DNA of 64,000 nt from a virus. Location of the stretch: the IMG/VR virus record IMGVR_UViG_3300032797_000632, positions 1-64,000 of that record; one strand, 5' to 3'. Positions within the stretch are counted from its first letter, which is position 1. Each line of letters begins with the position of its first letter. Below, piece by piece: positions 39,122 to 57,566 of the stretch. A program made the position numbers and the translations under genes. The notes under the pieces are model-generated. The model ran no database searches. It was not told the DNA's origin and worked only from the letters and a program-made list of their open reading frames with translations.

Positions 39122-42100
39122 AATGAGGCGGTTTTCGAAGGTTTACCCCTCGGAGCGGAGGATGTTCCTTCCCAAGCCTCCGGTATGGGTGGCGGACAGG
39201 GATCTGTGGGAGAAGATTTCCAAGAAGGTCGGCGGCTACGGGCGGGGATATGGCTGGTCCCTGACCGAGGCCACGAGGATCTACCGGGAGGAGGGCGGCG
39301 CGATCCGGCGGGCACCGGCCCGGTTCGACGAGTACAAGAAGGCCTCCCGCATGCGGGCGAGGATCGCCCGCCTCGGAGTTCTGCGGGCGGAACGGGAGGA
39401 GAGGCTGGGGGCCCCTCGCCGGGATCCACGCAGAGGGGGATCGGACATCTGGGACGAGTTGGTTGGGGGTTTTGCCGGCCCGGAGGAAATCGCCCACGGT
39501 CTAAACATTATGCTCGAGACAGCCGAATTGATCTTCGAGGCCATATCCACTATTCCTCGGGCCAAGATTGAAAAGGCCCAACAGAAGTATGAACGCAGAA
39601 TGGGCCTGGAGGAGTCGGACCGGCCAGTATCCCCACACCTGCGGATGGGGGCTAAGGGTGCCGGGAGGGTGTCGGAGGCTGTCGGATCAATAAGAAGGAG
39701 GATGGGCATGGCGATGGGGGACATGAAGGCCTTCAACCAGAGGTTTTTCAAGGATGTCCCGCAGGGGAAGGACATCAAATGGTACGGCAACAAGGGCGTG
39801 CTCGCACTCCCCGGGGGAAAGAATGCGGAGATAAAGCTGAACGACAGCCACATTTCTCGTCATTATGACGAGTATGTCGTGAGCATCATCGACGCCACGG
39901 GGCACGGGAAGATCACATCGCATCGGTTCCCCTTCGAGCAGTATTTGGACCCGAGCAAGCGCAAGGATAAACGGGGGGATTACGAGGGGTTCTACGCCTG
40001 GCAGTACTCGTCGGCACAACCGCTGGAATGGTACATCGCCGTCCCCTCCGACGACAATGTCCGGGCGATGGCCGAGGAGATCATGAGCTTCATCAAGGAC
40101 TACACCGTTTAGGGGGGATTTATGGGCATCAACGCCAAGGTGATCAGAATCAGGGAAATGGTGGCCGGGGAAAAACGGACTCCGAGGCGCATGGCCTTGA
40201 CCGACTTCCCCCGGAATTGGGACGTGGCCAAGGAGGTCACGGACTGGAATTCCGCCCTAGACTTCCTTGACAAATACAAGGACCGGGCCAAGGAATGGTG
40301 GAACCAGCTTCTGGACCGCCTAAAGCATGACGACTACGACAAGCCGGCCGGCCTGATAGACAAGGCCCTCGGGGCGATTCCCCTGCCGGCCAGCCGGAGA
40401 ATCCACAGGGCGGATGTGGACAGATCGAAAATATCGGAGGTGCGGAGGGCGGTCAAAAAGGAGTTCCCCAATTTGAGGTTCAACATCAGGGAGGTGGGGT
40501 TCTCCGATTTGGCCAGAGGCTCCCGGTATTTTTTCAGCGCCTCGAATTGGGACAGCCCCGAGACCTTCAAGCGGGTCGAGGAGATCGTCAAAAGCATCGC
40601 CCCCGAGATCATCGTAAGCGAGGGGGGCGTGATGATGGGTCCGGAACCCGCAAGCCGGCGGGAAAGGCATCAAAAAAGGAGGGAGATTGTCATGGAAGGA
40701 AAATCGGGGATGATCCTGCGGAGGGGCCTGGAGGAGGGGGAGGAGGAATTGGCTACCGTAGAATATGACGATGTTTTTGATGACAAAACCTCCGAGGTTT
40801 ACAGCAGGATAGAGAGCGAATGCACGGAGGCCGCCGACAAGGTGCAGGAGGCGATTGTCGAGGCCATCAACGAGATGGAGGAATCGCTGGTGGATATCGT
40901 GGAGGGCGTGATCGACGAGATGGAAACCGCCCTCGACCGGAAGCTTACCGAAGACGAAAAGGGCGAGGTGAGGGAAAAGCTGGCGGACGATTACAGGGAT
41001 GTCGCCAGCCAGTTCAGCACTGCGGAGTATGATTTCCACTCCTCGGTCGCATACTGGAACCCGAGGCGGTAGACCGTGCCCGAGTTCAAACTGAAAATAA
41101 CCATCGATGGCCGGCAGGCGGCGATTATGGTCGTCAGCGCCGACACGAAGGAGGAGGCGATGAGAAACATCAGGGAGCGGATCGACATCTCCGTGGTGGG
41201 GCAGGAGCCCCGGGGGTCGAGGCGGGTGCGGAGCCGGAGGTCGCTCCGCGAATGGGCCGACGACATTATGAACGCCGCCAAGGAGATCAAGTCGAAGCAG
41301 GAGGAGCTGGGCCAGAAGGCATGGAACATCATAATGCCTTCCCTCAAGGAGATCGTAATCGCCGCACAGGCGATTCAGTATGATCTTTTCTCGGAGTCGT
41401 TGCGAAACGCCTCCTTGAGGGAGGTCAAATCCCAGGAAGTGGCCGATGTGGTGTCCGACCCCGGGTTCCAGGAGCTGGTCGCCCCGGTGTCCGAGGGCAT
41501 AGTACAGCAGATGGGCGAGGTGGTGATGAGGACCGTCGACCAGATCGCCGGGCCGATCGAGGAGGTCCTTGATCGCCCCCTGGCCGAGGAGGAGCTGCCC
41601 GATGTCCACGAGGTGGCCACCGACATGGTCCAGGAGTCGCTCTCCCAGGTGTCCCGGGGGATCGCCGAGACCGCCCCGGCTCCCGGGGTCGAGGCCAGAA
41701 GGAGGGCCCGTTGGGCGAGGGGCTGATAATGACAAACCTGGTCGAGCTGGCCAGGGGGAGGATCGGCAAGCTCCCGGGCGTGGTGTCCGTGGGGCTGGCG
41801 GACATAAGCGGCATGGAGTACCTGTCCGTGACCCTAAAGCCCGGGGCCAAGAAGGGCGATGTGGTCCGGGCGATCAAGAGCCTGGAAAAGGAGGGCGACG
41901 GGGCGATCCCCTACGCCATCTGGCGGAAGGGGGAGCCGGTGCCAGAGGAGACGAGGCCCGGGATCCCGGAGCCCAAACCAAGGAAAAAGGGGGGCAGCAT
42001 GGGGTTGGTGGGGAAATCAATGGCCATAAGACGGATGCTCGGCAAGGAGGGCAAGGAGGCGGTCGAGGCGATGGTGGTCGAGTTTCTGTCCGGGAACCCG

Positions 42101-44913: not shown

Positions 44914-45849
44914 ATGGTAAAAACATCGATAATCGGAATCGGCGGGGCGGGTGCCAACATCGTGGGATCCATTTGCGGGGCGTTCAAGGGGAAAAACCTC
45001 CCCGCCGAGTTTGCCGTCCTGAACACGGATGTGCAGGCACTCGGATCGATAGTCGAAAGGCATAAGCTGGATCCGGCGATATCCCACCAGATAGGCAAGC
45101 GGTCCACCAATGGCCTCGGGGCAGGAAGCATTCCCGAGATCGGGGCTGCCGCCGCCAAGGAGGATATTGCATTAATAAGAAGCCTAGTTCAGGGCCGGGA
45201 TCTCGTCATGGCCGTGGTCGGCATGGGAGGGGGGACCGGATCCGGGGCCTCCCCTATCCTCATGCACGAGGCCCGGGAGGCCGGAGCTCTGACCGTCTGC
45301 TGGATGGTAATGCCCTTCTCCTGCGAGGGGGCCAAGAGGGCCAAAATCGCCCGGGCGGCACAGAAGGAGGCCGAGGCAGAGTCGGACGCCCATGTGGTGG
45401 TGGCCAACGATGTGGTCGAGGACTTGGTTTTCAAGGATGCGATGGCGAATATCAACTCGACCATTGGCCGGGGGATCGAGGTCATGATCCAGGTGCTACT
45501 TGACCCTAGCCTGATCAACTTGGACTTCGCTGACTTCCGGACTGTGCTCAAGGCCGGGGGCCGGGCACTATTCTCCTTCGCCGGATACGATGGGGAGAGG
45601 CGGGCCGGCAAGGTGTCGGACGATCTGCTGAAATTCTCCCTCCAGCCGGCCACAAACACCAAGCGAATCAGGCAGTGCATAATATTCATCCGCGGGGGAT
45701 CCGACATGAGGCGGGACGAGATCGAGGGCGTATCCACCGCAGTGCAGAAAAAACTGGATGAGGACGCCCTGATGCTCATGGGCGTATCGGTGGGAGCGGA
45801 AAAGGGCCCGCTCGAGGCCGTGTTCTTCGGGACGATGGCGGAGAAATAA
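44914..45849 (+). CDS. ftsZ: FtsZ-family GTPase lacking the C-terminal linker and tail
   Basis: GIGGAGAN; NTD; GLGAG; tubulin signature GMGGGTGSG; PF..EG; T7 loop INLDFAD. Confidence 0.92.
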   Translation: MVKTSIIGIGGAGANIVGSICGAFKGKNLPAEFAVLNTDVQALGSIVERHKLDPAISHQIGKRSTNGLGAGSIPEIGAAAAKEDIALIRSLVQGRDLVMAVVGMGGGTGSGASPILMHEAREAGALTVCWMVMPFSCEGAKRAKIARAAQKEAEAESDAHVVVANDVVEDLVFKDAMANINSTIGRGIEVMIQVLLDPSLINLDFADFRTVLKAGGRALFSFAGYDGERRAGKVSDDLLKFSLQPATNTKRIRQCIIFIRGGSDMRRDEIEGVSTAVQKKLDEDALMLMGVSVGAEKGPLEAVFFGTMAEK

Positions 45850-48431: not shown

Positions 48432-49676
48432 ATGCCCGACATATGGAGCTTTGACACGGTCATCGAGATGATCGTCGAGGATGTGGAGGAGATGATGAGG
48501 CAGTATTGGAAGGAAGAGCCGACGGAAGGATCCCGAGTCATGGGACCGTGGATCGGGCTTGCGATGGACGCCTTTGCCGAGGAGATCGCCGCCCGGGTGG
48601 AGAGGGCCGTTGTGGACGCCCTTGTAAAAAAGAGGTACGAGATAGTTTAAGGAGGATGCCATGCCCAAATTGACATTCAAGACCGATGATCTGCTCGAGA
48701 TGTTCGGGCTTCCGACCATCGAGCAAATGGAGGATACCGGCGAGCAGATGGTCGATTATGCCTACCAGGAAAAGGACATCGACGAGACGCTCGAGGATTA
48801 CGGGATCGAGGACACGGAGAAAAACCGGGAGTCCGTGCGGATGGCCCTGATCGACGCCATATCGTTGGCCACGAGGGGAAACGCCGTGCAGCAGGTGCTC
48901 CAGACCCTCGGGTCCGTGCTGGACGAGTTCTCGGATTACAAGTACAGCTACGACATCATGGGCGAGAAGGGGTTCGAGGGGATGCAAGGAAAGGCCCGGG
49001 GGATCATTAGCCACAATATCGACTGGGAGAAAACGGTGGTCGAGGTGGCCGACGATTTCGGGCATGTGATCAACGATCTTCTGTCCGGGGAGGGAACGAT
49101 TCCGCCGGGCACCTATGCCGAGGATTACGACGCGAAGCAAATGCAGGGGTCGTTTCATGTTTTGAGCATGTATTGGGATGTCTACGGCGGGAGGATGCCC
49201 GAGGTCGGGGATTTCGACGCCGACATTGATAAGCATTATTTCAAGGAAAGGCTGGAGGAAGAGGGGCTCCTGAAAAAGCCCCGGAGGAGGAGATAAACAT
49301 GCCCGGCAAAAGACGCCTCGATCTTGGGAGCAGGACATTCGAATCCAGCAGTGTTTTCGACGAGGAGGCCGACGGCCCGATCCCGAGGAAGGAGCAGATG
49401 GCCGAGTGGGTGAAGTATATCATCGAAGAGCAGGCGGACCTGGAGGGAAGCTTGCCTGATGATTGGACGGATTGGGATGTGGAGATATCCGGCGAGGTGG
49501 CCGGCAAGGAGGACGACCCGGACATGGACTGGTCTTGTGAGGCCGAGTTTGAGCTGACCGATCCGGACGGGCATCCCGCCGTGTGGGGCACCATCTGGGT
49601 GCAGGGCCACCACCCCGACCCGAGGAAGATCGATTCGATTGTGGTGCACGAGGTGGGCATATCCGCGGAGGTCTGA
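48432..49676 (+). other. Three highly acidic proteins (48432-48650, 48661-49296, 49299-49676)
   Basis: AGGAGG SDs; D/E-rich. Confidence 0.6.
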
Positions 49677-49677
49677 C

Positions 49678-50436
49678 ATGGAGCGAGAGGCATACATCAG
49701 CAAGGAAAAAGGCAAGTGGTGAGTTCGTAGCGAGAAAAACCCCTCCTGGTCAGGAGGCTGCTACGACACCAAGCCAGAGGCCGAGGACAGGTTGGCACAG
49801 GTAGAAAGGATCAAGCACATGAAAGGCGGTGCCATGAACAAGGAAGGCGGGTTGCCGAAAACGGAAGAGGAGCTGAAGAATTATTATTGCCCGGAGTGCG
49901 GGCAGAACCCCGACAACCCGGAGCAGATCGTCTACGAGCCGAACCCGCATTATTTCTCCCCCTATGTTTGCACCGACTGCGGAAAGAGCGTGATCCCCGT
50001 CAGCAAGGACACGGGGAAGCAAATAAGCATTGAGGAATGGAAAAAGGAGCGCGAACTCCTGAAAGGAGGATCGATGGGAAAAGGCGTGATATCTGACGGC
50101 ATCAAAAAGATCGAGGACATCTTGGCCGCCAAGGAGGAGCCCGAGGAGAAGGCGGAGGGCGGGGAGGCTGAGGGTGGCGAGGAAGAGGAGCTTGTCCTCG
50201 AAACCGAGGAGGATGTGGCGGAGCTCTACGAGGAGGCCAAGGAAAAGGCCATTGAGCTTCTCGACGCCGTCATCGAGGCCACCATCGAGGAGGAGGGAAA
50301 TCCTCCCAAGTGGGTCAAGAACCCGGCGATCTGGGAGAAGGCCAAGGAGGCGGTGGAGCCGTACAGGGATAAGTATGATGAGCCCTACGCTGTTATCTCT
50401 TGGCTCTACCAAAGGCTCGGCGGAAAAATTAAGTAA
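49678..50436 (+). CDS. Modular head-associated protein with in-frame UGA at codon 15 (candidate selenocysteine)
   Basis: GGAGG SD then ATG 49678; TGA 49720-49722; frame continues into track ORF 49792-50436; SECIS-like hairpin follows. Confidence 0.7.
49723..49767 (+). promoter_or_regulatory. Putative bacterial SECIS element
   Basis: Lower stem TCGTAGC/GCTACGA; upper stem CCTCCT/AGGAGG; apical loop GGTC 25 nt after the UGA. Confidence 0.65.
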
Positions 50437-50489
50437 ATCCATTGGGTTGGGGGAGAAAACTGCTTCGGCATAACCGAAAGGAGCCGATC

Positions 50490-50846
50490 ATGGGCGTGGC
50501 ATTGAAGGCGGGAATCGTCAGGCGGGCCCTGCGCACCGGCATGAGGCGGGTGGCCGGATACACGCACTACTGGAGCTATCCGCAGGGAAGCGAGTTCGGG
50601 GGCAGGCGAAACGCCCGGGGCGAAGGCGTCGTGGGAGTTGGGGCATGGAACGATTTGCTTGGCGGAATTCACGACATTGACGTCAAAATCGATACCGCCA
50701 TATCGGCCATCGGAACCGTGGGGCTTGGATTATACAATGCGGATCAAGTGCTCAAGGCCATAAAGCCCGCCCTCAAGGAGGCTTCCGAAAAGCTGGCGGA
50801 GGTGAATAAAATCGCTAGGGATATAGCGGAGACCTACTACAGGTAA
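50490..50846 (+). CDS. Hypothetical protein with Arg-rich leader
   Basis: AAGGAG SD; IVRRALRTGMRRVAG. Confidence 0.6.
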   Translation: MGVALKAGIVRRALRTGMRRVAGYTHYWSYPQGSEFGGRRNARGEGVVGVGAWNDLLGGIHDIDVKIDTAISAIGTVGLGLYNADQVLKAIKPALKEASEKLAEVNKIARDIAETYYR

Positions 50847-50852
50847 TGCCCA

Positions 50853-51617
50853 ATGAGACGCAGGTCGTACTATCTCGGGATTGACCGGGCGACGCCAGTC
50901 GAGAACACCGAGGAGTCCTTCGATATGTATCAGTGGGACCAGACGGTGATGGACGAGCCCCATCCGCCGGCCCGGGTGGAGCAGTACCCGCCCCGGTGGA
51001 GCCTCGATATCCAGCGCCGGGAGCGGTGGCGGGAGAGGATGTACCGCCCGTTTCGCACGGACAAGTCCCGCACGCCGGCCTTCATAAAGAGGAGGCGGGA
51101 GACAAACCCGCGGGTGGAGATCGGAATGCAGGCGGGCATCATCCGCCTCATCTTGGCCGGGTATTTCGATATCGACCCCGAGAAAATCCACACTCTTTAC
51201 CACTCCACCCCTTCCACGAATGTGGAAAGCATCATGTCCCGTGGGCTGGTCCCCGGCCCTCCCCATAAGGGGGAAGATCCGGCGAAGCCGTGGCTCAAAA
51301 ATGTCGTGTGGATGGCCGACAGTCCGGAGGCGGCCAAGCACCACGGGCTCAGGCAGATGGAAAAGAAGGATGTGGCCGGGGGGCTGACGGTGCTCGAGAT
51401 CCAGTTCGACCCCAAGAAGATCAACCTTTACAAGGCACTGGCCCCCGGGTTTTTCACGACGGACGAGGCAATTCCCCCGGAATGGATCAGGGTGGTGGAG
51501 ACGGTCAAGAGGGCGGAGACGGGGGCGGATATGCATCCTTTGTTGGCGGAGAATCTCCGCAGGGCCCGGGAGGCAGTTGGAAGATTGGCGGAAAGATACA
51601 GGAAGGGATCCTCTTGA
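50853..51617 (+). CDS. ADP-ribosyltransferase-fold protein (Tpt1/KptA-like NAD-binding domain)
   Basis: LYHSTP..NVESIMSRGL.P...VWMA...A..HG...VLEI...IPPEWI. Confidence 0.65.
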   Translation: MRRRSYYLGIDRATPVENTEESFDMYQWDQTVMDEPHPPARVEQYPPRWSLDIQRRERWRERMYRPFRTDKSRTPAFIKRRRETNPRVEIGMQAGIIRLILAGYFDIDPEKIHTLYHSTPSTNVESIMSRGLVPGPPHKGEDPAKPWLKNVVWMADSPEAAKHHGLRQMEKKDVAGGLTVLEIQFDPKKINLYKALAPGFFTTDEAIPPEWIRVVETVKRAETGADMHPLLAENLRRAREAVGRLAERYRKGSS

Positions 51618-51647: not shown

Positions 51648-52712
51648 TTACATTACCCTTTGAATGCTCGGGGACTCCAGGCTCCCGAGGGTCGGCAGGG
51701 TGCGGGCGAGGATGTTCCGCGCTCCGACGGTGTCGGCGTCGTTTGCGTGGCCGCAGGCGACGCACAGAAAGTCCTCTCCCCTGCGATTCAGCATGTCAGT
51801 CGTGCCACAGACGGGGCATTGCCGGGAGGTGTTGGCCGGATCCACGGCCACGGGCAGAACACGGTTCTCCCGGGCTTTGAGCTCGATCCGGTTGAGCACC
51901 CGCCGGTAAACCCACGGCGACATGGCCTTGCGAAATGCTTTATTTCTGTTCGGCTTCTTTCCGGTCTTGAGATGCTTGAGCTTCTCGATGCCTACGGCCC
52001 GGAGCTCGGGCCACGGGAGCTGGTTGACGGTGCGGTTGATGAGGTTGTCCCGCTCCCGGTGGGCCCGGAGTCGGCCCTTGGATCCTGGCCGGCGCCGGCG
52101 GACTCGATCCCTGATGCACTTGAAGTCGGTGCCGTAGTGGTGGCCATCGGAGTCGGAGATCAGCTTATTGACGCCGAGGTCGAGGCCGAGGATCCGGCCC
52201 TCGGTCTTGGGGGCTTGGTCGGGGATGTCGACCCAGAGGATCATCGAGTCTTCGGAGAGAGAGCATCCCTGAATGATCCTCGCCCCGGGCTGGGCCAGCC
52301 ACTTGTTGAGCACGGCGGTTTTCCGGGTGGGGATGGTGATCCGATGGCCTTGATTCAAAACCGAGAGTTTGATGATCAGATCAAAGGACTCCTCGCCCTC
52401 CTCGACGGCGACGAACTTGGCGTCGAGGGTGGCGTTGCCGTCGAACACCGGGCGGGAGGGGGGTTTGCCGAGTTCCCGGGCGGACCGTTGGGTGGCGATG
52501 ACGATTTCGATGGCTTGCTTGAGTGCGGTGCTTTTGTACCGAGCGGAGAGGCGGGAGTGCTCGAGGATTTGGTATGGGGGGATTCCGGGTTCGTCCCACA
52601 AGTTTTTGATGTAGAAGTTGACGGCGACCCGGTAGGATTCGAGGAGTGCATTAATGGCCCGTCGTTTCCGGGCGGTAGCGAATTTGAGGGTGATTTTGCA
52701 GGCCCGCTTCAT
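51648..52712 (-). CDS. tnpB: TnpB/Cas12f-like RNA-guided nuclease (no adjacent transposase)
   Basis: RuvC I LGLDLG; II IEKL; TSRQCPVC..CVAC; III DADTVGARNI. Confidence 0.9.
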   Translation of the reverse strand: MKRACKITLKFATARKRRAINALLESYRVAVNFYIKNLWDEPGIPPYQILEHSRLSARYKSTALKQAIEIVIATQRSARELGKPPSRPVFDGNATLDAKFVAVEEGEESFDLIIKLSVLNQGHRITIPTRKTAVLNKWLAQPGARIIQGCSLSEDSMILWVDIPDQAPKTEGRILGLDLGVNKLISDSDGHHYGTDFKCIRDRVRRRRPGSKGRLRAHRERDNLINRTVNQLPWPELRAVGIEKLKHLKTGKKPNRNKAFRKAMSPWVYRRVLNRIELKARENRVLPVAVDPANTSRQCPVCGTTDMLNRRGEDFLCVACGHANDADTVGARNILARTLPTLGSLESPSIQRVM

Positions 52713-53022: not shown

Positions 53023-53868
53023 ATGCACTTCATCACGGCCAATGCGAAGGTCACGGCGGCGGGAGTAATGGGCGGGGCCCCGGGGAAGGACATTCTCCGG
53101 AGGTTCGGAGCGAGGAAGGAGCTACTCGATCCGCAGATCTTCTCCGCCGTGGCGGAGAGGTACCGGATATCTAGGAACCCCCAGGACTATGTCTACACCA
53201 TTGCCCGGGCGGTGTCGACGGATGTCCCCAACCACAACGGGGACGCATTCCCCGAGGAGGAGCTGCTGAGCCTGAACCCGCACGCTGGGGTCATGGTCTA
53301 CCAGACCTTCATCAACGACCCTCTGCACATCGAGCATCTGAGCGACGATCCGACCACCGCCCTCGGGTTCATCCTCGACTCCCACTACAACACCGAGGCC
53401 CAGCACGACAAGTTCGTCGAGACCCTTGTGCTGGTGGACAAAAAGAAAAACGTCGCCCTGGCGTCGGAGATCGCCTCCGGGCGGAGGGATTCCTTCTCCA
53501 TGGGGTGCCTCTGCGAGATCGAGGTGTGCTCCTACTGCAATAAGGCGTCGAGGTCGGACGACGAGTTCTGCGACCACATGATGCACATGCGGATGCAGAG
53601 AATCGCCGGCCAGCTGGTCTACGGGAAATGCTACGGGGTCACATTCACCGAGCTATCATCGGTGGCCCAGCCGGCGGACGCCAAGGCCCGACAGAGGTTC
53701 CTGCTGGCGGCCTCGAGCCGGCGGAAGGCCGAGTCAGTACCCCTCATAGCGAGGATCGGGTTCTCCGGGGACAAGGCCCGGGAGGTTGCCCGCTATCTCG
53801 AGGCCCGCATGGGGGAGTTGCCCCCGGCGATGGTCGAGTTGGGCGAGAAGCTTTTCGGGGAGGTTTGA
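53023..53868 (+). CDS. Prohead (capsid maturation) protease
   Basis: NHNGDAF; HIEH; GFILD; FSMGC..CSYC..CDH; FTELSSV..PAD. Confidence 0.85.
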   Translation: MHFITANAKVTAAGVMGGAPGKDILRRFGARKELLDPQIFSAVAERYRISRNPQDYVYTIARAVSTDVPNHNGDAFPEEELLSLNPHAGVMVYQTFINDPLHIEHLSDDPTTALGFILDSHYNTEAQHDKFVETLVLVDKKKNVALASEIASGRRDSFSMGCLCEIEVCSYCNKASRSDDEFCDHMMHMRMQRIAGQLVYGKCYGVTFTELSSVAQPADAKARQRFLLAASSRRKAESVPLIARIGFSGDKAREVARYLEARMGELPPAMVELGEKLFGEV

Positions 53869-56444: not shown

Positions 56445-57566
56445 ATGAGTTCTCCCTACATTACAAAACCGGTGCTGGACAGGCGGACCGGCGAGCCTGT
56501 CAACATGCAGGCCTTCGGCGGATTCACCAGAGCGGGGTCCCCGAAGTACAGCGAAAAGGAAAAGATGTTCAATGACGCCGGCGTGATCAACGCCTCGAAT
56601 CCGGCCGACGCCCTGCGGATGATTCAGCATATCCTCTCGCAGGTCGGCTCCGGAGAGATCCAGCCGGTTCCGGCAATCCCCGAGCGGGCTGTCCCGCCCG
56701 AGGAGGTCGTGGCCAGGATCAAAGAGGCCATGCTCGACGAGTCTGGCGTGGGGATGAAAATCCTCGGCCAGGAAATCCTGAACCCCATCCGGGAGGTCAT
56801 CGACTACGAGGGCTTCTCGAGGAAGGTCCTGCTCCCCCGGCCGGTGGGCCCGGGCGAAGTCGTGAGGTACGACAAAGATCCGTACATCGTGGCCTGGGTC
56901 ATCGCCGAGGACGGCATCACCCCGGAATCCCGCGCTGGCGGAGCCTATGTCTACCCGCCGGAATTCGAGGTGACCTCCAGGCCGACCATCGAATTGCGGC
57001 ACATCTACCAGGCGCAGTTCGATATCCTCTCCAGGATCATGGACCGCGCCAGGCAGGGCATCGAGCAGCAGGAGGATGAAAACCTCGTCAAGCTGCTCCG
57101 GTCTGCGGCCAATGTGGTCAACACCACGCAGGGCTTCAGCGCCCTGACGGTCAATGCCCTCGAAAACCTGCGGTACGAGGTCGAGAGGCACCGCCTGATC
57201 GTCGAGAAGTTCCTCATCCACCGGCGGGAGATCACCGACATCGTCGCCCTGGCCCAGCTGGGCTATGTCGACCCGGTGACCCAGAGAGAGCTGATCATGG
57301 CCGGCTACATCGGTTATGTGCTGAACGCCATGATCATCACCACCGCTGGCGTCGGGACCAACGAGTTCAAGGTCCTCGAGCCGGGCGAGGTTTTCGCCGT
57401 GTGCGGCGGGGACCACCTCGGAGGCATGCCGGTGAGGGTGGAGCTCTTCAACGAGCCGATCGTCGGGTTCCACGAAGGCAAGCCCGTCCGGGGCTGGTTC
57501 TTCTACGAGCTCGTCGGTCAGATCATCATCAACTCCAAGGCGGTGGCACGCGGGGTGAAGATCTAA
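56445..57566 (+). CDS. Major capsid protein (HK97 fold)
   Basis: 373 aa; PIR..IDYEG..RKVL, YDKD, PPEFEV...PTI, FDIL.R...ARQ.I..QED resemble large-myophage MCPs; biased codon use. Confidence 0.85.
   Translation: MSSPYITKPVLDRRTGEPVNMQAFGGFTRAGSPKYSEKEKMFNDAGVINASNPADALRMIQHILSQVGSGEIQPVPAIPERAVPPEEVVARIKEAMLDESGVGMKILGQEILNPIREVIDYEGFSRKVLLPRPVGPGEVVRYDKDPYIVAWVIAEDGITPESRAGGAYVYPPEFEVTSRPTIELRHIYQAQFDILSRIMDRARQGIEQQEDENLVKLLRSAANVVNTTQGFSALTVNALENLRYEVERHRLIVEKFLIHRREITDIVALAQLGYVDPVTQRELIMAGYIGYVLNAMIITTAGVGTNEFKVLEPGEVFAVCGGDHLGGMPVRVELFNEPIVGFHEGKPVRGWFFYELVGQIIINSKAVARGVKI

What the first reader, a model, noticed from the sequence alone, without database searches (positions are those of the whole stretch)
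49678..50436. Candidate phage-encoded selenoprotein: in-frame UGA with a bacterial SECIS hairpin in a head-associated gene
Seen: GGAGG SD, then ATG 49678 reading MEREAYISKEKGKW-UGA-VRSEKNPSWSGGCYDTKPEAEDRLAQVERIKH, continuing in frame to 50436 (252 aa). Directly after the UGA is a two-stem hairpin (TCGTAGC/GCTACGA; CCTCCT-GGTC-AGGAGG) whose G-initiated loop starts 25 nt downstream. Established: bacterial SECIS elements lie just 3' of the UGA with a G-containing apical loop, and the E. coli fdhF loop contains GGUC. From memory, similar small phage domains read KWCV at this position (unverified), and Cys28 could pair with residue 15. Inference: the phage uses host SelB/tRNA-Sec to make a Sec-containing, possibly redox-active virion protein, or to tie its synthesis to selenium supply. 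This implies a Sec-utilising host.
Basis: partly seen in the sequence, partly recalled or inferred. Interest (0 to 1): 0.92.

Follow-up and report, generated by a model that had tools for sequence, protein, structure and literature searches.

The report
Possible selenocysteine codon in phage gene
A gene of an uncultured large phage has a UGA "stop" exactly where nearly all related proteins have one cysteine of a conserved pair, followed by an RNA hairpin of the kind bacteria use to insert selenocysteine, so it may encode a selenium-containing protein, but a recent knock-out mutation is not excluded.

Summary
GGAGG, ATG 49678, an in-frame TGA at 49720-22 and an open frame to 50436 are all there.

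The TGA lies in a ~50-aa phage domain. Of 88 domain instances, 79 have Cys at both positions 15 and 28, and 6 have neither. Three have Cys28 but begin at residue 16, all from one close lineage. Both flanks of the TGA align in frame with homologs.

The hairpin after the UGA meets all four published bSECIS criteria. It is more stable than 2,998 of 3,000 synonymous recodings. None of 58 same-length homolog regions can form it.

Against: no relative whose DNA I could read has TGA (0 of 114 loci; IMG/VR pattern 0 TGA versus 40 TGY). 15% of all TGA triplets in this genome pass the loose bSECIS model. The host is unknown, and the 64%-complete contig carries no Sec genes. A restart at Met48 would give a viable truncated product.

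A "second Sec gene" noted elsewhere in this genome is better read as two genes.

Odds: selenocysteine about 0.5, recent nonsense mutation about 0.3. The scan has noted similar candidates on other phage DNA; the papers I searched report none.

The parts
49666..49670 (+). Shine-Dalgarno GGAGG, 7 nt before ATG 49678; the upstream ORF stops at TGA 49674-76
49678..50436 (+). Full reading frame of 252 codons if UGA 15 is decoded. It has three modules: N-domain (residues 1-52), zinc ribbon (58-115) and C-terminal domain (about 150-252).
49678..49833 (+). N-domain (three strands plus a helix) of a widespread family of uncultured phages; it holds the paired positions 15 and 28
49720..49722 (+). In-frame TGA, codon 15, aligned with Cys in 79 of 85 complete homolog domains
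49759..49761 (+). TGC, Cys28, the covarying partner of position 15
49717..49771 (+). Two-stem hairpin (candidate SECIS). Lower stem 49725-31/49760-66, upper stem 49742-47/49752-57, loop GGUC 49748-51, A-rich 5' internal loop 49735-41.
49819..49821 (+). ATG of Met48 (the conserved M of the KHM motif). This is the start chosen by one gene caller (P0002, 205 aa). It is the restart point if the UGA terminates.
49792..49794 (+). TTG (Leu39), the start chosen by the record's own gene call (P0161, 214 aa)
49849..50022 (+). CPEC...CTDC zinc-ribbon module (weak Pfam zinc-ribbon hits, all below the curated cut-offs)

Best explanation
Codon 15 (UGA 49720-22) is read as selenocysteine by the host's SelB and tRNA-Sec, directed by the hairpin at 49717-49771. 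The product is a 252-residue protein. In its N-terminal three-strand-plus-helix domain, Sec15 takes the place of the usual Cys15 and pairs with Cys28 on the neighbouring strand, as a selenenylsulfide instead of a disulfide. Shown: the UGA, the Cys alignment, the covariation, the hairpin and its codon-level selection. Inferred: decoding as Sec, the Sec15-Cys28 bond and the host machinery.
For: (1) Sec/Cys signature. P0003 and P0006 read ...YCVRSE / ...WCVRSE at the site. Of 88 domain instances, 79 have Cys at both 15 and 28, 6 have neither, and none has only one. The only exceptions are 3 calls that start at residue 16.
(2) Both flanks are intact and homologous in one frame. tblastn alignments run through the TGA (72% identity over 50 aa to P0003, E 1.8e-18). 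A strong SD and ATG are kept. Codon 16 is GTT, so residues 16-47 cannot be started there.
(3) The hairpin meets all four bSECIS criteria quoted in PMC13188914 (passages). These are a 4-nt loop, a 6-bp upper stem, GG at the start of the loop, 25-nt spacing and MFE -23.8.
(4) The hairpin is selected at codon level. It scores z -3.43 against synonymous recodings, with 2 of 3,000 as stable. It uses the rare codons CGT (0.05), TCA (0.06) and GTT (0.17).
(5) The hairpin is specific to this lineage. 58 same-length homolog regions form at most 13 of its 20 pairs, and 0 of 58 form the 6-bp upper stem.
(6) The stop is not private to one assembly. Truncated gene calls (205 or 214 aa) occur on 3 JGI contigs. 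A 94-97% identical contig of another run covers 49689-49902 without gaps and shows no difference row at 49720-22 (17 rows were hidden, so this is probable, not certain). A more distant lineage (P0004, P0005, P0007) is called from a GTG at codon 16, which implies a stop just upstream, yet keeps residues 16-47 at 81% identity with family-typical residues.
(7) TGA is a normal stop in this phage, so genome-wide recoding does not explain it.
(8) A model of a natural homolog puts residue 15 in strand 13-18 and residue 28 in strand 25-29 (pLDDT 85-96).
Against: No relative whose DNA I could read has TGA at the site: 0 of 108 loci and 0 of 6. The IMG/VR pattern scan found 0 TGA versions against 40 TGY versions, though the window's own record and near kin are withheld there. 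Conservation and covariation of UGA plus hairpin are therefore untested.
The bSECIS model is loose. 14.8% of the genome's 3,152 TGA triplets pass it, and 5.1% pass with an MFE at least as low.
Hairpins are fairly common in this part of the homologs' genes. 19% of 68 have z < -2 in the synonymous test, and 2 others reach z < -3. The window ranks 4th of 89 by MFE.
No Rfam SECIS family matched.
The E. coli-type features, 11-nt spacing and a bulged U, are absent.
The contig has no tRNA-Sec, SelA, SelB or SelD and the host is unknown.
The Cys pair looks like a structural staple that 6 of 85 domains do without, whereas known Sec sites are mostly catalytic.
Met48 with an AGGA 8 nt upstream offers a restart giving a plausible truncated product, because the three modules also occur separately.
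The supposed second Sec gene of this phage did not hold up.
Confidence: 0.5

Rival explanations
1. Recent nonsense mutation (TGC or TGT to TGA, one base). The N-domain is dead or dying. The phage makes only a 14-residue peptide plus a truncated zinc-ribbon and C-domain protein, started at Met48 (or TTG39). The hairpin is chance or has another role.
For: Gene callers give exactly such products (P0002 205 aa, P0161 214 aa). The modules occur separately in many proteins, so a truncated form is viable. TGA is absent from every other family member with readable DNA. Hairpins of similar strength occur in some Cys or non-Cys homologs.
Against: Of roughly 25 single-base routes to a stop within codons 1-47 (my estimate), the mutation hit the one conserved paired Cys. 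Both flanks show no decay, frameshift or second stop. The hairpin exceeds 2,998 of 3,000 synonymous recodings and is unique to this lineage. The stop seems shared by strains 3-6% apart, and the only visible difference between TGA and Met48 is synonymous (49792). A more distant lineage also seems to carry a stop there while conserving residues 16-47.
Confidence: 0.3
2. SelB-independent leaky read-through. UGA is occasionally read by a near-cognate tRNA (Trp or Cys), as in the read-through protein of phage Q-beta (recalled, not from a call). This gives a low level of full-length protein.
For: It has the same flank conservation as the Sec reading. No Sec machinery could be shown.
Against: The short product would be a useless 14-mer. 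Trp never occurs at position 15 in 85 complete domains. A downstream hairpin with a G-rich loop at bSECIS spacing is the Sec signal, not a known bacterial read-through signal.
Confidence: 0.1
3. Assembly or sequencing error at 49722.
For: It is a single base in a metagenome assembly, and no raw reads could be laid (one search listed only one contig-level run).
Against: Truncated calls occur on 3 JGI contigs. A distinct strain's contig covers the site with no listed difference.
Confidence: 0.03
4. The phage or its host reads TGA as a sense codon generally (stop-codon recoding with a suppressor tRNA).
For: Recoding is known in large phages (recalled). The contig is only 64% complete, so a suppressor tRNA could lie in the missing part.
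Against: TGA ends 60 of 171 crude plus-strand genes, as often as TAG (57) and TAA (54). Recoding TGA gains no coding coverage, and same-frame ORF pairs split by TGA (52) are no more common than those split by TAA (52) or TAG (44). The only tRNAs found are Arg(cct), Met and Thr(cgt).
Confidence: 0.02

Closest known systems
Bacterial selenoprotein genes with an in-ORF SECIS read by SelB (consensus bSECIS model; prototype E. coli fdhF)
   Same: In-frame UGA aligned with Cys in homologs, conserved flanks, and a hairpin directly 3' of the UGA. The hairpin has a small loop starting with GG, a 6-bp upper stem, 25-nt spacing and MFE below -7.5.
   Different: It is encoded by a phage, in a protein family with no known redox function. 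The upper stem starts 19 nt after the UGA, not 11, and there is no bulged U. No SelB, tRNA-Sec or host is known. The UGA has not yet been seen in any relative's DNA.
Sec/Cys homolog pairs used for SECIS-independent selenoprotein prediction
   Same: The TGA/Cys alignment with conservation on both sides is exactly the criterion described in PMC13188914 and PMC12013277 (passages).
   Different: There is only one lineage with TGA against dozens with Cys, and the Sec trait of the decoding organism cannot be checked.
Stop-codon-recoded phages (TGA or TAG read as sense with phage suppressor tRNAs)
   Same: An in-frame stop codon in a gene next to the structural module of a large uncultured phage.
   Different: There is one site only, TGA is a frequent genuine stop, and no suppressor tRNA is present.
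HicB N-terminal / YegP-like small beta-beta-beta-alpha domains
   Same: Same order of secondary-structure elements. These are the best but weak Foldseek rows (E 0.6-1.5).
   Different: No significant match, so this is a lead only. The phage domain has no Pfam or PHROG family.

Membership tests
SelB/SECIS-dependent bacterial-type selenoprotein gene | In-frame UGA aligned with Cys in homologs | tested here: met
   79 of 85 complete domain instances have Cys at position 15; tblastn alignments run through the TGA.
SelB/SECIS-dependent bacterial-type selenoprotein gene | Sequence conservation in the same frame on both sides of the UGA | tested here: met
   AYISKEKGKW before the UGA and VRSEKNPSWSGGCY after it match the family consensus.
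SelB/SECIS-dependent bacterial-type selenoprotein gene | bSECIS model: loop 3-9 nt, upper stem 4-16 bp, G in the first two loop positions, 16-37 nt from UGA to loop, MFE <= -7.5 | tested here: met
   Loop GGUC, 6 bp, 25 nt, -23.8 kcal/mol; criteria from PMC13188914 passages. Specificity is low: 14.8% of 3,152 TGA triplets pass.
SelB/SECIS-dependent bacterial-type selenoprotein gene | UGA and hairpin kept, with compensatory changes, in relatives | tested here: inconclusive
   0 of 114 loci and 0 IMG/VR pattern hits carry TGA. Indirect signs come from truncated calls and one contig.
SelB/SECIS-dependent bacterial-type selenoprotein gene | selA, selB, selC and selD in the decoding organism | not testable with these tools
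   The host is unknown. None of these genes is on the 126-kb, 64%-complete phage contig.
SelB/SECIS-dependent bacterial-type selenoprotein gene | Selenium found in the protein (75Se label or MS) | not testable with these tools
   Needs an experiment.
E. coli fdhF-type SECIS | 17-nt upper stem-loop 11 nt after the UGA, bulged U17, loop G23 and U24 | tested here: not met
   The loop has G then U at its 2nd and 3rd positions, but the upper stem starts 19 nt after the UGA and has no bulged U (against the PMC8659212 passage).
Stop-codon-recoded phage (TGA as sense) | In-frame TGA in many genes, TGA avoided as a stop, suppressor tRNA present | tested here: not met
Unnamed phage beta3-alpha domain (...G.Y[C]V.S...GG[C]Y.T..EAE.RL.QVE.FKHM) | Profile or sequence match over residues 1-52 with invariant V16, S18, W24, G26, G27, A35, R38, L39, E43, K46 | tested here: met
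   439 proteins at E <= 1e-3 for the whole query, across all three modules. 88 N-domain instances recovered. Invariant columns.

The most novel reading that the evidence does not exclude
A bacteriophage encodes a true selenoprotein. Sec15 replaces one half of a cross-strand Cys-Cys staple in a small domain common in huge uncultured phages. It forms a selenenylsulfide that can close under the reducing, anoxic conditions (landfill or sediment type) where a disulfide would not, and the phage has evolved its own SECIS to borrow the host's SelB.
Probability: 0.3. Interest if true: 0.85.

Novelty: new variant of a known kind. Interest (0 to 1): 0.65.

Why it matters
I found no paper reporting a natural selenoprotein of a virus of bacteria. 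Four full-text searches covered selenocysteine/selenoprotein with phage and bSECISearch. In addition, 'phage', 'virus' and 'viral' occur 0 times in the 2026 review PMC13188914.

If this is real, three things follow:
- Phages can evolve SECIS elements matched to a host's SelB.
- Gene callers systematically truncate such phage genes.
- Sec can be used in a structural or redox staple of a small phage domain.

It would also mark the unknown host as a Sec user. The claim is cheaply testable with a reporter fusion and with the DNA of a few named relatives.

Tried and rejected
Searches that gave nothing.
- Pfam and PHROGs gave nothing for the N-domain, only weak zinc-ribbon hits.
- Rfam at E <= 10 over 49000-51000 gave no SECIS family.
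- tblastn against GenBank phages gave no match.
- The ESM Atlas returned only unnamed viral clusters.
- Foldseek against the PDB gave nothing at E <= 0.001.
- The search for related loci for candidate 2 in IMG/VR found no relative.
- The search of earlier findings by place (relatives) and by sequence gave nothing beyond this genome.

Genome-wide TGA recoding: rejected.

+1 frameshift at the UGA: rejected, because homology continues in the zero frame.

AGGAGG of the hairpin as an SD for a restart: rejected, because there is no ATG, GTG or TTG in 49758-49773.

Second Sec candidate from earlier notes (genome 74330-32, locus L115:10330-32).
- The pattern CCTC-N1-4-GGTC-N1-6-GAGG does occur only twice in the genome, both 22-25 nt after these two TGAs.
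- Its hairpin is not unusual: z 0.13, and 54% of synonymous recodings are as stable.
- The upstream protein ends at residue 95 in a 67% identical relative too.
- The downstream ORF is called from GTG L115:10372, behind GGAGG 10362-66. A relative with 81% identity is called from the same position.
- I read this as two genes with a hairpin that sequesters the SD.

Sequencing runs.
- Only one run was listed, with a small share of words, and no RNA holder was listed.
- Laying it showed a related contig. 17 difference rows were not shown, so the state of 49722 there is inferred, not read.

Synteny of neighbours with the homolog loci was almost nil.

Supplementary files of papers were not opened. 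Lists of predicted selenoproteins in them could in principle include prophage genes.

Full report
WHAT IS THERE.

The window is the first 64 kb of a single 126,141-bp contig. It is an IMG/VR virus record, linear, with a CheckV completeness estimate of 64% and GC 0.58.

At 49666-70 lies GGAGG. At 49678 lies ATG, one base after the TGA stop of the upstream ORF. Codon 15 is TGA (49720-22), and the frame then stays open to TAA at 50434-36. Read through, the product has 252 residues.

The phage otherwise uses the standard code.
- In a crude plus-strand gene set, TGA ends 60 genes, TAG 57 and TAA 54, out of 171.
- Recoding any one stop gives no gain.
- Same-frame ORF pairs split by TGA (52) are no more frequent than those split by TAA (52) or TAG (44).
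- The only tRNAs are Arg(cct), Met and Thr(cgt).

THE PROTEIN.

A scan of 1.84 billion cluster representatives gave 439 proteins at E <= 1e-3. The matches fall on three separable modules:
- an N-domain (residues 1-52);
- a zinc ribbon (58-115; only weak Pfam hits);
- a C-terminal domain (about 150-252).

The N-domain has no Pfam or PHROG family and no match in GenBank phages. It is common in uncultured phages, many of them huge, on contigs up to 512 kb.

An AlphaFold2 model of a natural homolog (P0012, with 42 aligned sequences) gives strands 5-10, 13-18 and 25-29 and a helix 32-50, with pLDDT 85-96 over the first 40 residues. Foldseek against the PDB gives nothing at E <= 0.001. The best weak rows are HicB N-terminal domains.

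Neighbouring genes:
- a tubulin/FtsZ-like gene at 44914-45849;
- a TnpB transposase gene at 51648-52712 on the minus strand;
- a head maturation protease at 53023-53868;
- the major head protein at 56445-57566.

'Head-associated' is therefore positional only.

THE SITE.

The closest full-length relatives read ...GEYCVRSENNPDWSGGCY (P0003) and ...KQWCVRSENNPDWCGGCY (P0006). I recovered 88 N-domain instances from the protein hits:
- 79 have Cys at both 15 and 28;
- 6 have neither (E/T three times, V/S, V/A, H/I);
- none has one Cys without the other, apart from 3 entries (P0004, P0005, P0007) that begin at residue 16 and keep Cys28.

The same coupling is visible in the translated loci: CV.S...WSGGCY versus EVKS...WSGGTY, VV.S...GG[TS]Y and others.

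In the model, residue 15 lies in strand 13-18 and residue 28 in strand 25-29. With a 19-24 loop the register would place 15 opposite 28. This is my inference from the strand limits, because no coordinates were available.

Position 15 is thus one half of a genuine Cys pair, and the partner Cys28 (TGC 49759-61) is retained in the window. tblastn of natural homologs against the genome runs straight through the TGA (72% identity over 50 aa to P0003, E 1.8e-18). It finds only this one copy of the domain.

THE HAIRPIN.

RNAfold gives a 20-pair, two-stem structure over 49717-49771 at -23.8 kcal/mol (z -2.85). A 2026 review (PMC13188914, passages seen) states the bacterial SECIS model as:
- a loop of 3-9 nt;
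- an upper stem of 4-16 bp;
- a G in the first two loop positions;
- 16-37 nt between the UGA and the loop;
- MFE <= -7.5.

The window has loop GGUC, 6 bp, 25 nt and -23.8, so all criteria are met.

The model is loose. Of the genome's 3,152 TGA triplets on both strands, 14.8% pass it, and 5.1% pass with an MFE at least as low as the window's for the same 60-nt frame.

Three further tests bear on the hairpin.
- Synonymous recoding. Against 3,000 recodings drawn from the phage's own codon usage, the native sequence has z -3.43, and only 2 are as stable. It uses the rare codons CGT (0.05), TCA (0.06) and GTT (0.17) in the stems.
- The same test on 68 homolog regions. The window ranks second. However, 19% of the regions have z < -2 and two others reach z < -3, so this stretch tends to fold in other members too. 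By plain MFE the window is 4th of 89.
- Threading the window's pairing scheme onto 58 distinct same-length homolog regions. They give at most 13 of 20 pairs (mean 8.9). None has the 6-bp upper stem and none the 7-bp lower stem.

The hairpin is therefore a derived feature of the lineage that has the TGA, which is what a newly evolved SECIS would look like.

It is not an E. coli-type element. The upper stem begins 19 nt after the UGA rather than 11, and there is no bulged U (PMC8659212 passage). No Rfam family matched.

IS THE TGA REAL AND OLD?

The indirect evidence is as follows.
- The identical C-terminal 205 residues are called from Met48 on a 16,144-nt JGI contig. They are called from TTG39 on two contigs, including the window's. 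No caller could extend upstream on three contigs.
- One public run (a landfill metagenome, coded X1) holds a 7,840-nt contig that is 94-97% identical. It carries a different 411-nt cassette in place of the upstream gene. It covers 49689-49902 without gaps and with 7 differences. The three listed ones (49792, 49839, 49848) are all synonymous in this frame, and no row is listed at 49720-22.
- 17 rows of that table were hidden. From the pattern of what was shown, I judge it about 80-85% likely that this strain also has TGA.
- P0004, P0005 (Logan) and P0007 (JGI, written with V first, hence GTG) all start at codon 16, on contigs of 7,071, 105,688 and 7,256 nt. This implies a stop just upstream in that lineage.
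- Their residues 16-47 are 81% identical to the window's, and every difference is a residue common in the family. That argues that this stretch is still translated in both lineages.
- In the window, codon 16 is GTT, so residues 16-47 can be translated only from ATG 49678 through the UGA.

Against this, the comparative record is empty.
- None of the 108 loci from IMG/VR and metagenomes has TGA, and none of the 6 from GTDB genomes.
- A degenerate DNA pattern for TGA-V-[KR]-S...W.GGC[YF] finds 0 IMG/VR contigs, while the TGY version finds 40.
- The pattern is correct, but the window's own record and near kin are withheld from those scans.

THE 'SECOND SEC GENE'.

Other first-stage notes on this genome proposed a second read-through, at genome 74330-32, with the same GGUCAGG apex. 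The motif coincidence is real. CCTC-N1-4-GGTC-N1-6-GAGG occurs exactly twice in the 126 kb, each time 22-25 nt after the TGA in question.

The other evidence goes against it.
- That hairpin is not unusual.
- The upstream protein ends at residue 95 also in a 67% identical relative, and no Cys-containing or fused homolog exists.
- The downstream ORF is called from a GTG five bases behind the GGAGG that forms the hairpin's 3' arm. An 81% identical relative is called from the same position.

I read it as two genes with an SD-sequestering hairpin. It adds little or nothing to the Sec case. No relative of it is in IMG/VR.

MACHINERY AND HOST.

The contig has no SelB wing domain, SelA, SelD or tRNA-Sec. 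This defining feature is untestable here.

WEIGHING.

For Sec:
- the stop is TGA;
- it sits on the one codon where a conserved, covarying Cys belongs;
- both flanks and the translation start are intact;
- a codon-level-selected, lineage-specific hairpin of the right geometry follows;
- the stop appears to persist across strains and probably across a more distant lineage.

For a recent nonsense mutation:
- no TGA relative is visible;
- a truncated product is viable;
- the SECIS model is loose;
- the Cys pair is dispensable in some members.

I put Sec at about 0.5, nonsense at 0.3, SelB-independent read-through at 0.1, assembly error at 0.03 and general recoding at 0.02.

NOVELTY.

Four full-text searches and a term search of the 2026 review of prokaryotic selenoproteomes (0 occurrences of phage, virus or viral) turned up no natural selenoprotein of a bacterial virus.

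This scan's own notes list several other phage candidates on other genomes and in other protein families. Those are unchecked by me and are not counted as evidence.

If real, this is bacterial-type Sec insertion in a new setting and a new protein family: a new variant of a known kind.

Noticed in passing
window 51648-52712 (-): A TnpB / IS605-type ORF of 354 aa (Pfam Cas12f1-like TNB domain 1.3e-15; PHROG transposase 4.8e-21). It sits between this gene block and the head protease, on the opposite strand to nearly all other genes.
   Followed up: partly
window 44914-45849 (+): A tubulin/FtsZ-family GTPase (Pfam Tubulin 4.6e-30; weak PhuZ PHROG), as in phages that build a spindle or nucleus-like compartment.
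   Followed up: no
L115:10045-10530 (genome 74045-74530): A 95-aa gene ends in TGA. It is followed by a hairpin CCUCUAC-GGUCAG-GUGGAGG whose 3' arm is the SD of a 52-aa gene starting at GTG 10372. The apex GGUCAGG is the same as in the window's hairpin, and the composite motif occurs only at these two places in the genome. This is an unexplained coincidence, or a shared binding site for some factor.
   Followed up: yes
homolog loci, e.g. L041, L039, L009, L074, L083 (codons 14-32 of the N-domain): Many homologs, with Cys codons or with other residues at position 15, have their own, different, unusually stable hairpins in this part of the gene. 19% of 68 have z < -2 against synonymous recodings. 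No explanation.
   Followed up: partly
window 49279-49688 versus the contig of run X1: In a 94-97% identical strain, the 125-aa gene just upstream (49299-49676) is replaced by 411 unrelated bases, so this is a swappable cassette directly in front of the candidate gene.
   Followed up: no
window 39177-39311 (+): A weak paralog (31% identity over 45 aa, E about 0.01) of the C-terminal PPxWV...W.K module of the candidate protein.
   Followed up: no
window 53023-53868 and 56445-57566 (+): Head maturation protease (PHROG 2e-37) and major head protein (PHROG 5.9e-53). These mark the start of the structural module downstream of the finding.
   Followed up: partly
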